Below, piece by piece: positions 14,635-55,780 of a stretch of DNA of 64,000 bases. The stretch is from NCBI GenBank assembly GCA_964016885.1, contig OZ024753.1:7998001-8062000 (forward strand). The letters are read 5' to 3'. A model generated the notes under the pieces. It had not been told where the DNA came from and did not search any database. It saw nothing but the letters and a program-made list of their open reading frames with translations. Both the position numbers and the translations under genes were made by a program. Position 1 is the stretch's first letter, and each line of letters starts with the position of its first letter. The DNA comes from Eledone cirrhosa. Lineage: Eukaryota.

Positions 14635-14700
14635 TATTTCGTTATATATATTTCAGGGATATCATATTAACAATATGTTATGCCATCTTCAGACAAAATA
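14635..14700 (-). ncRNA. type I hammerhead ribozyme motif, family H1 (within element ~14595-14740)
   Basis: Minus strand: TATTTTGT-CTGAAGA-[TGGCATAACATATT GTT AATATGATATCCCT]-GAAA-TATATA-TA^ACGAAATA. Confidence 0.75.
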
Positions 14701-14740
14701 CAATATAAACAGTCTTATAAATAAATAGATATGACATACC

Positions 14741-14940
14741 NNNNNNNNNNNNNNNNNNNNNNNNNNNNNNNNNNNNNNNNNNNNNNNNNNNNNNNNNNNN
14801 NNNNNNNNNNNNNNNNNNNNNNNNNNNNNNNNNNNNNNNNNNNNNNNNNNNNNNNNNNNNNNNNNNNNNNNNNNNNNNNNNNNNNNNNNNNNNNNNNNNN
14901 NNNNNNNNNNNNNNNNNNNNNNNNNNNNNNNNNNNNNNNN
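14741..14940. other. assembly gap (200 N)
   Basis: Run of n. Confidence 1.
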
Positions 14941-15133
14941 CCTCCTTCTTTCTCCTCCTCCACCTTCTTCTCCTTCTCCTCCTCCACCTTCTTCTCCTTC
15001 TCCTCCACCTTCTTCTTCTTCTCCTCCTCATCCACCTTCTTCTCCTCATCCCACCTTCTCTCTTCCTCCATCTGCTGCTTCTCTTCCTCCACCTTCTCCT
15101 CCTTCTTTTTCTTCTCCTCCTCCTCCTTCTTTC
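14941..15133. repeat. (CTT/CCT)n low-complexity tract
   Basis: Seen directly. Confidence 0.9.
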
Positions 15134-16062
15134 ATATCTGTATTGCTACTGCTACTGCTTTCCTATTACCAACCACTTTACAGAGTGTACTGGGTACATT
15201 CATCATGTAAGATGACCAACACTAGGTAAATGGCCATACCTTTAACACAGCTGAAGGGTCCTACCAACCCTTTGATTAGCAGGTAAAACTTTACTGAAAT
15301 AAACTTTTACCCTTTCATTACTCTGAATCTAGAGAAGTTGAAGCTGACCATTAACTGCATCGACTTCATCACATTAGGAATAGTTTCCACGAGATAGGAA
15401 CATCGCCCCTTCTAACCCTACCCCCAACTCAGAATATATATTAAACAAGAAAATATTCAAGGGAGCTAACCAGTATAGAGTTAATGATTTTCTTTCAACT
15501 CCTGAGGGGAATAAATAAAAGTCAATAACGAAATACAGATATTATCATAACCTCTGCTGGATGTGATTCAATGCTATGTTTCTGAAGATACCATAACAAA
15601 CAGAATCAATTTGACAGATAGAAATCGATCTGGATCAGTTTTTCAAGATTGGTAGCAAATATGTTTTGATTGAATTCTTTCTGGACATCAATGACCATTC
15701 GTTATTGTTGCTCATTATTGATTTCATTTGTTGAACAATTTTAGATTGTGTTGGTTAATTGTAACATGGTTCATTGCAGTTGAGTCATGTCAATGCTAAA
15801 ATATTGATAACCATTGAGGAATGTCTCTGTTTTTCTTTGGCTCACTTATGTGGAACACAATCACAACACTGCTTCCTTTGATGGTGAGCAAAGCAGCCAT
15901 TTGAACTTCATATTAAGGCAAGAATATATTTGAACTATCAAGGTCAGCAGCTATTTACTATATTGAAAATCATTCAAGATTTTACAGTTTGATATGGAAT
16001 TAGATTACTGTTTGAATTGTTCTTGTGAAAGGGCCAGGCATGTGTGAATATTTTAGGTTTAA

Positions 16063-16503
16063 CCCTTTAGCATTTGCATTCCTCTATACTTACTATCATA
16101 TTTTTCAGTAATTACTTCATCTCACATAATTATTTCACATAATATCGAATCTATGAGATTTTGATATTATTTCTTTTGAGAACAATTCCTTAATGTAAAT
16201 ATGAGCAGTTGGTTATAGCCGGTTTGAGCAGAAAAAGGTGAGAGATTCTGACTGGATATAGCCGGTTTGAATAGAAAGAGGTGAGAGAATTCTGACTGGA
16301 TATGACTGGTTTGAACAGAAAGTGGTGAGAGAATTCTGACTGGGATATGGCTGGTTTGAACAGAAAGTGGGTGAGAGAATTCTGACTGGATATGGCTGGT
16401 TTGAACAGAAAAAGGTGAGAGAATTCTGTCTGGATATGGCTGGTTTGAACAGAAAGTGGTGGAGAGAATTCTGACCAGATATGGCCGGTTTAAATGCTAA
16501 GGG
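16063..16503 (+). mobile_element. piggyBac-like MITE with internal ~45-bp tandem repeat
   Basis: TTAA|CCCTTTAGCATTT...AAATGCTAAGGG|TTAA, with TTAA at 16059-62 and 16504-07. About 6 copies of GGTTTGAACAGAAAG.GGTGAGAGAATTCTGACTGGATATG lie at 16220-16490. Confidence 0.8.
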
Positions 16504-16699
16504 TTAATCTGTAAGATTTGAGAATACTGTGGAATATGTACTGCAAATAGAACTAAGTTTGGTCTTCAGCCTCCTTTGAGGTTTATCCTATGTTTCTATA
16601 TCTATGTAATGCTGTGTTTTGTTATATTTGTAAGCAGTCTGGGTATGTTTGTGTATATTCGTATACAAGCATGTATGCGTGCCTATATATGTATGTATA

Positions 16700-17340
16700 T
16701 GTGTTTGTGTGTGAATATATATATGTATGAATGTATGTATACTATGTATGTATGTATGTATATTTGTGTGTGAAGTATATATATATGTATGAATGTATAT
16801 ATGTACATATGTATGTGAATATATATATATATGTATGAATGTATATATGTACATATGTATGTGTGTATGTATATATGAACAAATGTATGTATATATCTCT
16901 GTGTGTGTGTGTGTGTGACTGTGTATGTTTATATGTAATGTTTCTATGATCTATCATCATCATCATCGTTTAACGTCCATCTTCCATGCTCGCATGGGTT
17001 CTATGTATGTATGTATTTATCCATGTATGTATGTATCTATCTGTGTATGTATCTATCTATATATGTATACATCTATCTATCTATATATGTATGTATCTGC
17101 GTATGTTTGTGTCTATCTATATCTATCTATCTATCTATATCTATCTATCTATCTATATATGTATGTATCTGCGTATGTTTGTGTCTATCTATCTATCTAT
17201 CTATATCTATCTATCTATCTATATATGTATGTATCTGCGTATGTTTGTGTCTATCTATATCTATCTATCTATCTATCTATATCTATATATCTATATATGT
17301 ATATATCTGTGTATGTTTGTATCTATATACATACACACAC
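16700..17340. repeat. (TATG)n/(TATC)n microsatellite
   Basis: Seen directly. Confidence 0.9.
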
Positions 17341-17883
17341 ATCATGAAATCACAAAACACAGAAAAGATAGCAAGATGAATACTAGAAATTCTTCATTTA
17401 TGTCTGTGACTGTTTCAATTTCCTATCATTGTGAATAACTGTAATTAAACTCTAATTGGAATTGAATATGAATTTTACTCTCATTAGATATATTCAATTC
17501 CATATTTATCTGAAGATGGAAATCATAAAATTTTACACTGAATTTTTCTTTGAATGTTTTGTTGTAGATTCATTTATGTTTGCTTGTAATTTTTTTTTAG
17601 AATATTTTGTATGTATGTATTTATTTGTTTGTGTTTATTGTTTTTAACTAGAATAAATTAGCCAGTTTCCTTGTTTCTGTATACTCCAGTACCTAGCCTT
17701 TCTTACTTTCCTTTGAGTCAATTTTAATTGAGAATCAAATACCTTTTTCCCTTGCATTCATTCAGTTGGGTAATTAGCTACAAACTAGATGAAATACCTT
17801 GATTGATTTCAAAAAAAATTATTTTTACGAAGATGCAACCAAATCATTTCAAATAAATCAAATTCCTTATTATCACTTTTAAA

Positions 17884-18145
17884 TGAACCAGAAAGTCCTT
17901 TCATACATCCTGTCGGTTCTGTATTTAGAATAACTAGATTAACTCTTAAATGAAACCATGGAAATCAGCCAGAAAGTGTTTACGTACACAATGTTTAGTT
18001 TGTATTTAGAATAAGTATACTGGTTCCTTAATAGACCTTGAAAACCAACCAGAAAGTATTTATTTTGTACACTTTGTCTATCTTGGATTTTGAATAGCTA
18101 TAATGGTTCTTATACAGCACTTTACTAATCAACAAGAAAGTATTT
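17884..18145. repeat. degenerate ~80-bp tandem repeat (about 4 copies)
   Basis: A(A/G)CCAGAAAGT...TGTATTTAGAATAA recurs at about 17886, 17967, 18046 and 18131. Confidence 0.55.
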
Positions 18146-53735: not shown

Positions 53736-54329
53736 CAATACTGCCAATCAAAAGAATAATAAATTTGTTTTTCAGCAAAATAAAAAATAAGAGAAACCAA
53801 ATTTGTGCATCATTCATATTACTTTGCTAGTTTCATCTGACTTATGAACCACAGCATGTTTATATCTTTAACAAGTAATTTATACTGGAAAGGTAAACTT
53901 AAAGATCATGAGCGTATTAACCAGAACTATCATAAATTTATTTTCAAAGTACCAAAGCTGTTATCGAGGAGAACTCAGTCACTCAGTCACAGAGATTCGA
54001 ATTTATGAAAATTCAGAGAGTGTTAATAAAACATCTTGCATTGTGAGTGAAAACACGCTAGTTTCTTATAGATCTAATGTCTCTGAAGCTATCAAAGAAC
54101 ATTTTGCCATTCACTACAAGTCTGGCAAATATCCGGTAGACTGTGGAATCACTGGAATAGTTGCTTTTGACCAGACATGCATAGATTTCAATGAATGGAT
54201 ATTAATATAAACAACTATCTAAGCTCCAATATTGATCTTCCTGATTATTTATTGATTCTTGGGCCATCATATATCTTACTTTTCCTTCACTCTTGTTCAA
54301 TTACGATTGCTCCCTACATCTCTCTCAGC

Positions 54330-54890
54330 CTCTTTCTCCTCCCCCCTCCACTCTCTCTCTCCTCCCCCCTCCACACTCTCTCTCCTCCCCCTCCACACTC
54401 TCTCTCTCCTCCCCCCTCCACTCTCTCTCTCTCCTCCCCCCTCCACTCTCTCTCTCATTCTCTATCTTACCTTCAGTCTTGTATTTCATTACCTATGTTT
54501 CTGTCTCCCTACCTCTCTCTCTGTATATATATATATATATGTATATATAGGTGCATGTATGAGTGTATATATATATAGATGTATATATATATATGTATGT
54601 ATAGACGTGTATATATATATATATATGTATATATATATGTATGTATTGATGTATATATATATATGTATGTATAGATGTATATATATATATGTATGTATAG
54701 ATGTATATATATATATGTATGTATAGATGTATAGATGTATATATATATGTATGTATAGATGTATATATATATATGTATGTATAGATGTATATATATATGT
54801 ATGTATAGATGTGTGTATATATATATATGTATATATATATATATGTATGTATGTATAGATGTGTATATATATATATATATGTATGTATAG

Positions 54891-54935
<45 letters not shown>
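54330..54935. repeat. CT-rich repeat followed by (TA)n/(TATG)n microsatellite
   Basis: Seen directly. Confidence 0.9.
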
Positions 54936-55125
54936 TATATTCATGCACTCACGCTATATACAAATATATATACCATTAATATACACATATATCCCAATTG
55001 CTCCACATTTCTCTCATCCCTCTCTTCTCTATCACTTAATATCATACACCACACAGTTCATAGCTTCATTTAGTTCCTCACCGACATTTCCGATTTTCCT
55101 CTTAGATATCATTTAAGAGAGAGAG

Positions 55126-55170
<45 letters not shown>

Positions 55171-55195
55171 TACCTATATATATATATAGGTATAT

Positions 55196-55543
55196 GAAGG
55201 CACATGGCTTAGTGGTTAGAGCATTGGCCTTGCAATCGAAAGGTTGTGAGTTCAATTCTCAGACCGGGTGATGTGTTGTTTCCTTGAGCAAGACACTTTA
55301 TTTCACATTGCTCCAGTTTACTCAGCTGTAGAAATGAGATGATAGGGACTGGGGTCCATATCATTCCACTGCAAAGTGGTCGTGCAGGTGCCACGGCAAA
55401 AAAGCACACAGCACTCACTGTAAATGAGGTTGGTGTTAGGAAGGGTATCCAGCTGTAGAAACCAAGCCAAAATCAGTTCCCGTCCCACCCTTGCGAGCAG
55501 GGAAAAAGCGGACGTAAAAATGAAATGATGATGATGATGATGA
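55196..55543 (+). mobile_element. SINE family B, full length, RTE-derived tail 1
   Basis: A-box TGGCTTAGTGG (55205-15), B-box GAGTTCAATTC (55248-58) and a CORE/V-like CCTTGAGCAAGACACTT motif. The 3' end matches LINE 6909-6972. Confidence 0.9.
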
Positions 55544-55569
55544 TATATATATATATATATATATATATA

Positions 55570-55780
55570 AGTAGAAGTTGTATTTAATTTGTTGGAAGTC
55601 CGACAAACATAAATATTTATAACTGATTTAGAGCACTCAACTGTTACTGGAGTAAATATTCAATGATATTAAATAAATGTAAACTATATTTATAAAACCA
55701 TATTTATATATTTCAAGGGCAACCAAGACAATATTGGTACGCTTTCATCAGATAAAATACAAAGTTTGTTTTATAAATAA
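55570..55780 (-). mobile_element. H1 element with hammerhead core (3' strand of stem I deleted)
   Basis: Minus strand: TATTTTAT-CTGATGA-AAGCGTACCAATATTGTCTTGGTTGCCCTT-GAAA-TATATA at 55705-55759. Body matches 20685-20915. Confidence 0.72.

What the first reader, a model, noticed from the sequence alone, without database searches (positions are those of the whole stretch)
14635..55759. Family H1 hammerheads show compensatory changes and swappable palindromic stem III
Stem I is TATTTTAT/ATAAAATA at 21053 and 23413, but TATTTTGT/ACGAAATA at 14635, an A-U to G-C compensatory pair. The wobble intermediate TATTTTGT/ATGAAATA occurs at 32391 and 43645. The core varies at the free N7 position (CTGATGA vs CTGAAGA), apart from one C->T copy at 32391. 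Stem II sequences differ widely yet all fold. The hexamer after GAAA is self-complementary or nearly so: TATATA, TATGTA, TGCGCA. Inference: selection on RNA structure, with cleavage via a dimeric (double-hammerhead) fold. A TATATA stem III also hides the ribozyme in TA-rich sequence.
Basis: partly seen in the sequence, partly recalled or inferred. Interest (0 to 1): 0.8.

Follow-up and report, generated by a model that had tools for sequence, protein, structure and literature searches.

The report
Penelope-transposon hammerheads with selected dimer palindrome
These are hammerhead-ribozyme motifs at the ends of a Penelope-type retrotransposon present in tens of thousands of copies in this genome; their base pairs were kept by selection and they likely cut RNA as pairs, an arrangement already described for such elements.

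Summary
Seven type I hammerhead (HHR) motifs sit where stated, most on the minus strand. One lacks its 3' stem I arm; one has C3>U. They are truncated ends (pseudo-LTRs) of Hydra-clade Penelope-like elements. Elsewhere in the genome each motif type flanks an RT + GIY-YIG ORF, with identical HHRs 3.3-3.8 kb apart. Exact patterns give about 59,000 TATRTA-type and 31,000 other-hexamer matches.

Selection on structure is supported. Changes shared by several loci keep pairing 29 of 35 times, private changes 19 of 65 (p=3e-7). Summed covariation beats a tree-aware null in stem II and in the two dimer-only stem III pairs, but not in stem I. No single pair is significant.

Palindromic loop III, dimer cleavage and covariation are published for PLE hammerheads. 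Palindromes are family-specific, not freely swappable; 'hiding in TA' is unsupported.

New details: an invariant C.C/C.U mismatch in stem II, a U15.2-A16.2 hexamer unlike other Hydra HHRs, and 0 of 60 near-full-length copies ending at the cut site, so templates were uncut or re-ligated. Cleavage itself is untested.

The parts
14635..14700 (-). Type I HHR, subfamily b (G-C stem I variant, CTGAAGA, TATATA); predicted cut after 14643; inside a 5'-truncated PLE end 14586-14740 that runs into an N gap
   Evidence: 98% to L177, whose identical HHRs flank a Hydra-type ORF
20677..20978 (-). Inverted arm of a head-to-head PLE insertion, family a: HHR 20837-20902 (3' stem I arm mismatched and partly duplicated) plus the long 3' tail ending at (TA)n
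20982..21168 (+). Sense arm of the same insertion: HHR 21053-21118 (TATATA, predicted cut after A21110), short 3' end about 50 nt past the cut, then (TA)n
   Evidence: near-identical HHR lies 251 nt before the ATG of a 741-aa RT+GIY-YIG ORF in L046
23353..23515 (+). Truncated end of sister family g: HHR 23413-23483 (TGCGCA, predicted cut after A23475), short end, (TA)n
   Evidence: 80-85% to L189, whose ORF is about 50% identical to family a
32253..32532 (-). Truncated end, subfamily c: HHR 32391-32455 with C3>U (likely decayed copy), TATGTA, long tail
43597..43732 (-). Truncated end, subfamily c: HHR 43645-43709 (G-U stem I, TATGTA), short end
   Evidence: 100% over 160 nt to L178, whose HHRs flank a Hydra-type ORF
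43741..43876 (+). Inverted long-tail piece joined to the 5' side of the 43709 copy (typical PLE inverted junction)
55564..55781 (-). Truncated end related to family a: core 55711-55751 intact but the UH and 3' stem I arm are deleted, so not a complete hammerhead; long tail

Best explanation
These motifs are the type I hammerheads of the pseudo-LTRs of Hydra-clade Penelope-like retroelements, scattered as 5'-truncated and inverted ends in (TA)n; their helices were kept by selection in the source elements, and they likely cleave as a double hammerhead formed by the two identical motifs of a tandem transcript. Shown: the link to an RT + GIY-YIG ORF, tandem units with identical HHRs 3.3-3.8 kb apart, copy numbers, pair-preserving changes, and two 3' termini past the predicted cut. 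Inferred: a read-through transcript of pLTR-ORF-pLTR brings two hammerheads together; the A-hexamer-U octamers form an 8-bp shared helix III that a lone motif can hardly form; cleavage occurs after AUA. New insertions are then copied from RNA that is intact across the cut site (uncut precursor, or a cut and re-ligated RNA), because reverse transcription starts about 50 or about 140 nt downstream and reads through it. The window copies are passengers and decay neutrally.
For: ORF link: L046 has the HHR, then a 741-aa ORF with DKT, YRDD-type RT core (YRDY in this copy, YRDD in siblings), CxC linker (full CxCX5C in L047-L052) and C-terminal GIY-YIG. In all 18 stretches fetched around chosen HHR pairs, a Hydra-type ORF match lies between or beside the HHRs. 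Same-strand tandems: L191 3,676 nt, L184 3,740, L185 3,816, L189 3,334. Insertion pattern: 166 of 187 copies reach (TA)4 at 40-59 or 120-159 nt past the cut. Copy number: 56,277 + 2,582 TATRTA matches and 31,432 others against 20 control matches. Selection: shared changes keep pairing 29 of 35, private 19 of 65, Fisher p 2.7e-7; summed G-APC exceeds 400 of 400 tree nulls for all pairs, for stem II and for the dimer-only pairs; 0 of 20,000 partner shuffles reach it. Independent count on 28 chosen sequences: 95.4% of cells paired, 15 of 18 pairs with double changes, 0 of 500 shuffles as high, slid registers 31-57%. Energy: monomer stem III hairpin +4.7 kcal/mol against self-duplex -2.2 to -10.5. 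94 of the first 100 non-TA hexamers are self-complementary (my count). Template: 0 of 60 near-full-length copies end at the cut and 35 of 60 read through it. Literature: PMC4209133, PMC6765202, PMC8557442.
Against: No cleavage or RNA data were obtained. No single pair reaches E<0.05 in my R-scape-like test (best 0.33 in H1, 0.063 with related families; effective n 13-22). Stem I alone is not significant within H1 (59 of 400). The TATATA duplex is weak (-3.2) and TATGTA weaker (-2.2). A TGTTCA subfamily with a central U.U/U.U spread anyway, and a CCCAGAAA subfamily has A.A at the base of stem II (25 of 197 copies). PMC7229834 reports that invertebrate HHRs with a 2-bp + tetraloop helix III cut as monomers. 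PMC11167929 found that a PLE HHR needed the PLE protein, was dispensable for insertion in vitro, and left no RNA-seq ends at the cut. Many loci were fetched with patterns that fix part of stem I and the hexamer, which removes variation from those columns.
Confidence: 0.7

Rival explanations
1. Same identity, but each hammerhead cuts as a monomer (2-bp helix III plus tetraloop), stabilised by the element's own RT/EN protein or a host chaperone; the palindrome is secondary.
For: A15.1-U16.1 and U15.2-A16.2 are nearly invariant (196 of 197; the first was fixed by my search pattern) and can form in a monomer. PMC11167929 reports protein-assisted cleavage of a PLE HHR. PMC7229834 reports monomer activity with 2 bp + tetraloop. 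The TGTTCA subfamily exists.
Against: The inner pairs h2-h5 and h3-h4 cannot both form in a monomer, yet they covary (AT/GC; TA/TG/CG/AT) beyond 400 of 400 nulls. The monomer hairpin costs +4.7 kcal/mol.
Confidence: 0.15
2. The fold is selected but cleavage is marginal in the life cycle. The structure serves mainly as a protein-binding, packaging or dimerisation signal near the reverse-transcription start sites.
For: 0 of 60 near-full-length copies end at the cut. An invariant, non-catalytic C.Y mismatch (0 of 224 paired) looks like a recognition site. PMC11167929: HHR mutants still insert in vitro. HHR-less Naiad elements proliferate (10.1101/2021.04.23.441226).
Against: The catalytic core is invariant across families whose stems are fully replaced (14 invariant columns, though my patterns required the core). 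N7 alone is free (T/A/G/C), as catalysis predicts.
Confidence: 0.12
3. Apparent covariation is only shared ancestry of a few amplified master copies, with no selection on structure.
For: The effective number of sequences is small and no single pair is significant. The G-C stem I variant may be one or a few events.
Against: Tree-aware summed tests and the shared-versus-private contrast reject this. Every paired column changes without losing pairing across families with about 50% protein identity.
Confidence: 0.03

Closest known systems
Hydra clade of Penelope-like elements (Craig et al. 2021, PMC8557442), including Hydra-1_Obim of Octopus bimaculoides
   Same: Single ORF with C-terminal GIY-YIG, DKT motif, CxCX5C linker, no CCHH, HHR in the pLTR with palindromic stem III, (TA)n targets, tandem and inverted truncated copies. 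By eye the same motifs occur in the same order as in Hydra-1_Obim.
   Different: A different family with a different HHR. Published Hydra HHRs and 43 HHRs in 37 of 77 metagenome Hydra-type loci nearly all have C15.2-G16.2 with 7-8 nt between GAAA and UH, and a short, fully paired stem II; 0 of 43 have the C.Y mismatch. Here the unit is longer (3.3-3.8 kb, 3' UTR 1.1-1.5 kb), the tail is about 90-100 nt rather than 30-40, and copies number in tens of thousands.
PLE hammerheads cleaving as dimers (Cervera and de la Pena 2014, PMC4209133; Lunse et al. as cited in PMC6765202)
   Same: Type I, weak palindromic helix III/loop 3, many consensus families per genome with compensatory changes, long helix II, inverted pairs 100-700 bp apart, low activity expected.
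   Different: Long 8-bp AU-rich helix I, a 6-nt palindrome, AUA cleavage triplet and an invariant C.C/C.U mismatch after three pairs of helix II. I did not find this mismatch in the passages read.
Non-LTR retrozymes and the newt/axolotl satellite-2 double hammerhead (PMC7229834)
   Same: Type I HHR with palindromic tetraloop in helix III, dimer-enhanced cleavage, very high copy number (126,247 motifs in axolotl).
   Different: Retrozymes are 170-400 nt non-coding tandem repeats. These copies are dispersed ends of an autonomous 3.3-3.8 kb element.

Membership tests
Type I hammerhead ribozyme | Core CUGANGA...GAAA...UH with three helices, stem I open | tested here: met
   5 of 7 window copies have an intact core and UH (one of them, 20902, with a mismatched stem I); 32455 has C3>U; 55759 lacks UH and the 3' stem I arm
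Type I hammerhead ribozyme | Helices supported by covariation | tested here: met
   Summed tests significant for stem II and III, not stem I alone in H1; no single pair E<0.05
Type I hammerhead ribozyme | Site-specific self-cleavage after H17 | not testable with these tools
   No assay possible; no RNA holder listed
Double (dimeric) hammerhead | Self-complementary helix III/loop 3 with an unstable monomer form | tested here: met
   194-197 of 197 copies paired at each hexamer pair (partly fixed by search patterns); 94 of 100 non-TA hexamers; energies; exception TGTTCA
Double (dimeric) hammerhead | Second identical motif on the same transcript | tested here: met
   Met in tandem elements L184, L185, L189, L191; not met for the window copies themselves, which are solo or inverted
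Double (dimeric) hammerhead | Cleavage depends on the dimer | not testable with these tools
   Needs an assay
Penelope-like element, Hydra clade | Single ORF, RT with C-terminal GIY-YIG endonuclease | tested here: met
   741-aa ORF in L046 read by motifs; Pfam gave no hit for 3 of 3 proteins; 30 full- or part-length relatives at 30-42% identity, unnamed
Penelope-like element, Hydra clade | DKG modified to DKT; linker CxCX5C; no CCHH in the endonuclease | tested here: met
   SDKT/TDKT; CNCRNKSNC in L047, L049, L052 and others (short deletion in L046); one Cys only between the GIY- and YIG-like motifs; definition from section 11 of the preprint
Penelope-like element, Hydra clade | HHR in pLTR, partial tandems, inverted 5'-truncated copy, tail on one end, (TA)n targets | tested here: met
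   tail is longer than the published 30-40 bp
Penelope-like element, Hydra clade | Length under 3 kb | tested here: not met
   Unit length 3.3-3.8 kb; the paper says 'generally short', so this is a soft feature
Penelope-like element, Hydra clade | RT phylogeny groups with Hydra references | not tested
   Reference sequences seen only as supplement text and compared by eye; no tree built
Non-LTR retrozyme | Short (170-400 nt) non-coding head-to-tail repeats each with an HHR | tested here: not met
   Same-strand HHRs are 3.3-3.8 kb apart around an ORF

The most novel reading that the evidence does not exclude
This is a distinct hammerhead architecture (8-bp AU helix I, invariant C.C/C.U mismatch in helix II, family-specific 6-nt palindromes) that acts as a self-recognition code. 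Only two motifs of the same family pair and cut, releasing a 3.3-3.8 kb monomer that is ligated into a circle. The circle cannot cut itself, and reverse transcription around it produces the partial tandems and the read-through of the cut site seen in 35 of 60 copies. If so, a very abundant invertebrate retroelement would give a direct test of the long-proposed circular RNA intermediate of Penelope transposition.
Probability: 0.25. Interest if true: 0.7.

Novelty: new member of a known kind. Interest (0 to 1): 0.36.

Why it matters
The role of hammerheads in Penelope-like elements is still open (passages of 10.1101/2021.04.23.441226 and PMC11167929). This genome offers many subfamilies and roughly 90,000 motif matches. 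That allows a clean contrast of selected against neutral changes and gives sequence evidence that the dimer-only pairs are under selection. It also shows that inserted copies derive from RNA intact at the cut site. The conserved helix II mismatch is a concrete target for structural work. The basic biology (PLE hammerheads, palindromic loop III, dimers, Hydra clade in octopus) is already in print, so surprise is modest.

Tried and rejected
- Rfam scan: no hammerhead among the 150 of 345 rows shown; TA-repeat miRNA hits dominate.
- Pfam: no family for 3 of 3 ORFs.
- My early idea that the G-C stem I pair was private to the window copy (no ACG among 30 loci) was wrong; one search refuted it.
- Per-pair R-scape-like test: nothing at E<0.05.
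- Retrozyme reading rejected.
- No Hydra-type ORF remnant in the window at E<=1e-6.
- Looking for a cleavage footprint at 5' ends: none, 0 of 60 (these are the 30 best of 40 scored hits in each of two searches and include a few duplicated loci).
- Partner ORF of the related TGATCA/TGTTCA and CTGC/GCAG families: not found.
- Lunse et al. (PMC5785218) is not held; known only through PMC6765202.
- Searches for prior description: 'hammerhead ribozyme'+'octopus', 'hammerhead'+'ribozyme'+'cephalopod', 'hammerhead'+'C-C mismatch'+'stem II' (0 papers) and one search found no account of this family or of the mismatch. Subscription journals, figures and unread supplements could hold one.
- Earlier scan notes: none.
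Full report
OBSERVATION. The window (31% GC, rich in TA microsatellites) holds seven related type I hammerhead (HHR) motifs, starting at 14700(-), 20902(-), 21053(+), 23413(+), 32455(-), 43709(-) and 55759(-). The loose core pattern gives 15 matches against 2.2 expected. Two copies are damaged: 55759 has lost UH and the 3' arm of stem I, and 20902 has a mismatched, partly duplicated arm. The host is a 3.0-Gb, 1,796-contig genome. 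That it is an octopod is my impression from size and repeat content; I did not test it.

WHAT THE MOTIFS BELONG TO. The 20902/21053 pair is a head-to-head inverted insertion between (TA)n tracts. Many of the 30 closest genomic relatives repeat this layout. Walking upstream reached an endonuclease-like frame, with 40,489 first-look candidates in the genome, 150 of them scored. L046 has the HHR 251 nt before the ATG of a 741-aa ORF with RT and C-terminal GIY-YIG motifs. It and its siblings show DKT, a CxCX5C linker and no CCHH, the features defining the Hydra clade of Penelope-like elements (PLEs) in section 11 of Craig et al.. By eye the motif order matches Hydra-1_Obim in the supplement, but the sequence and HHR differ. 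Pfam named nothing. The protein search returned 31 hits at 30-42% identity, nearly all unnamed. I fetched 18 stretches chosen around HHR pairs; all 18 had a Hydra-type ORF match. They cover the window's subfamilies: b (L177), c (L178), a (L191) and the TGCGCA family (L175, L189; about 50% protein identity). Four show pLTR-ORF-pLTR tandems with matching same-strand HHRs 3,334-3,816 nt apart. Of 187 copies, 96 reach (TA)4 40-59 nt past the cut and 70 at 120-159 nt, the two-ended 'tail' pattern of PLEs. The window has only truncated ends and no ORF remnant.

ABUNDANCE. A 33-mer just 3' of the HHR has 23,291 exact matches. TATRTA-type patterns give 56,277 + 2,582 matches. Hexamers not starting TA give 31,432 against 20 for the reversed control; these include the TGCGCA family and a TGATCA family whose ORF I did not find.

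COVARIATION. 50,968 matches have 3' U (39 G and 61 A opposite among the first 100, my count). 2,389 have 3' C, of which only 241 have A opposite, and the 100 listed are scattered over many subfamilies like decay. These are copies, not independent events. From 281 regex hits in stored loci, I kept 254 with a family neighbour, then the connected set containing the window copies (197 copies, 79 haplotypes). With related families, the loop III pair h2-h5 ranked first (E 0.063). Summed over helices, stem II and the two inner loop III pairs exceeded 400 of 400 nulls; stem I did not (59 of 400 in H1, 4 of 400 with related families). I left out the never-paired column and the pattern-fixed A15.1-U16.1 pair. 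Changes on branches shared by three or more loci kept pairing 29 of 35 times, and private changes 19 of 65 (p 2.7e-7). The pair-counting tool on 28 hand-picked sequences agreed, with its own warning about relatedness. Caveat: many loci were fetched with patterns fixing parts of stem I and the hexamer. Reading: selection acted on the source elements, and inserted copies decay.

DIMER. A lone motif can form only A-U, U-A and a tetraloop (+4.7 kcal/mol). Two motifs form 8 bp (-2.2 to -10.5). The inner pairs that need a partner covary, and 94 of the first 100 non-TA hexamers are self-complementary (TGCGCA, TGATCA, TGTGCA, TGTACA, TGTATA; exceptions TGTTCA x3, TGACCA, TTTATA x2; my count). Against a strict requirement: TGTTCA is a true subfamily of the related TGATCA family; the TA-rich duplexes are weak; and 2-bp + tetraloop HHRs of other invertebrates cut as monomers (PMC7229834). 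Cross-pairing between TATATA and TGCGCA has two mismatches, so the palindromes are family-specific. The window's two plus-strand motifs are not natural partners.

TEMPLATE. Every intact copy carries sequence from both sides of the predicted cut, so reverse transcription crossed it. Among 60 copies that include the ORF start, none has its 5' end within -5..+10 of the upstream cut; 25 end downstream and 35 read through. A linear RNA cut at its 5' HHR would stop there. Templates were therefore uncut precursors, as found in vitro for an anole PLE (PMC11167929), or re-ligated RNAs such as the circles proposed in PMC4209133. My data do not separate these.

After three covarying pairs, helix II always has a C opposite C or U: 0 of 224 copies are paired there, and C is present in 56,277 of 58,859 matches. 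It persists in related families with wholly different stem I (part of those loci were selected for that C). None of 43 HHRs found in 37 of 77 Hydra-type metagenome loci has it, and nearly all of those use C15.2-G16.2 with 7-8 nt. The same holds for the published Hydra table. A tertiary contact or protein site is a likely role (inference); long inheritance without function is less likely, given that its neighbours changed repeatedly.

COMPARISON WITH WHAT IS KNOWN. Cervera and de la Pena 2014 (parts 1-2 of 4 read) already report PLE HHR families full of compensatory changes, palindromic loop 3, inverted pairs and low dimer activity. The 2019 review (passages) and Perreault 2011 (passages) repeat the dimer model. 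Craig 2021 (passages, section 11, supplement part 2 of 59 and searches) lists an octopus Hydra element with an HHR. Frangieh 2024: parts 1-2 of 4 read. Cervera 2020, the O. vulgaris repeat paper and Marino 2022: passages only; the two cephalopod papers mention Penelope elements but not ribozymes. The 2026 retrozyme preprint: part 1 of 5 and passages. Figures were not visible, and bioRxiv supplements are closed; they could show a similar mismatch.

VERDICT. A real, well-supported feature and a new, very abundant family of a known kind. The added value is the selected-versus-neutral contrast, the dimer-only covariation, the invariant helix II mismatch and the absence of 5' ends at the cut. Interest 0.36.

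Noticed in passing
window 22553-22629 (cores 22563-22585 - and 22597-22619 +): Inverted pair of a second hammerhead type with a short stem II and a longer helix III; a relative in L031 shows a complete 5-bp stem I. Probably another PLE family.
   Followed up: partly
window 4084-4132 (-): Hammerhead-like core with a long perfect stem II but broken stem III/I; possibly related to motifs in L050 and L087 (not aligned).
   Followed up: no
L281:321 and 2326 (G000 C291): TGATCA-family HHRs in tandem 2,005 nt apart with no RT match between them: a possible 2-kb non-autonomous, HHR-flanked PLE derivative, much longer than known animal retrozymes.
   Followed up: partly
L045:1498-2889 (-), L034, L192: A second PLE lineage with YxDD RT and a canonical two-cysteine GIY-YIG endonuclease with an upstream Cys linker; its HHR was not identified.
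   Followed up: partly
L006, L014, about 170 nt upstream of the HHR: Long pyrimidine tract ending in CAG in the 3' UTR/pLTR, resembling a 3' splice site; D. virilis Penelope has an intron ending at its HHR (PMC4209133).
   Followed up: no
H1 and related-family tails, e.g. window 20720-20760: The short 3' end falls just before a shared ACTC...GAGT hairpin-like motif seen in H1, the CTGC/GCAG family and the TGATCA family; candidate RT-initiation or protein-binding site.
   Followed up: no
window 6575-6946 (+): Fragment resembling the C-terminal end of an RTE-type LINE protein (label recalled, not tested).
   Followed up: no
window 37071-38290, 24500-25200, 60431-60890: 48-bp tandem repeat arrays related to a dispersed repeat; many other SINE-like dispersed repeats (e.g. 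416-606 family).
   Followed up: no
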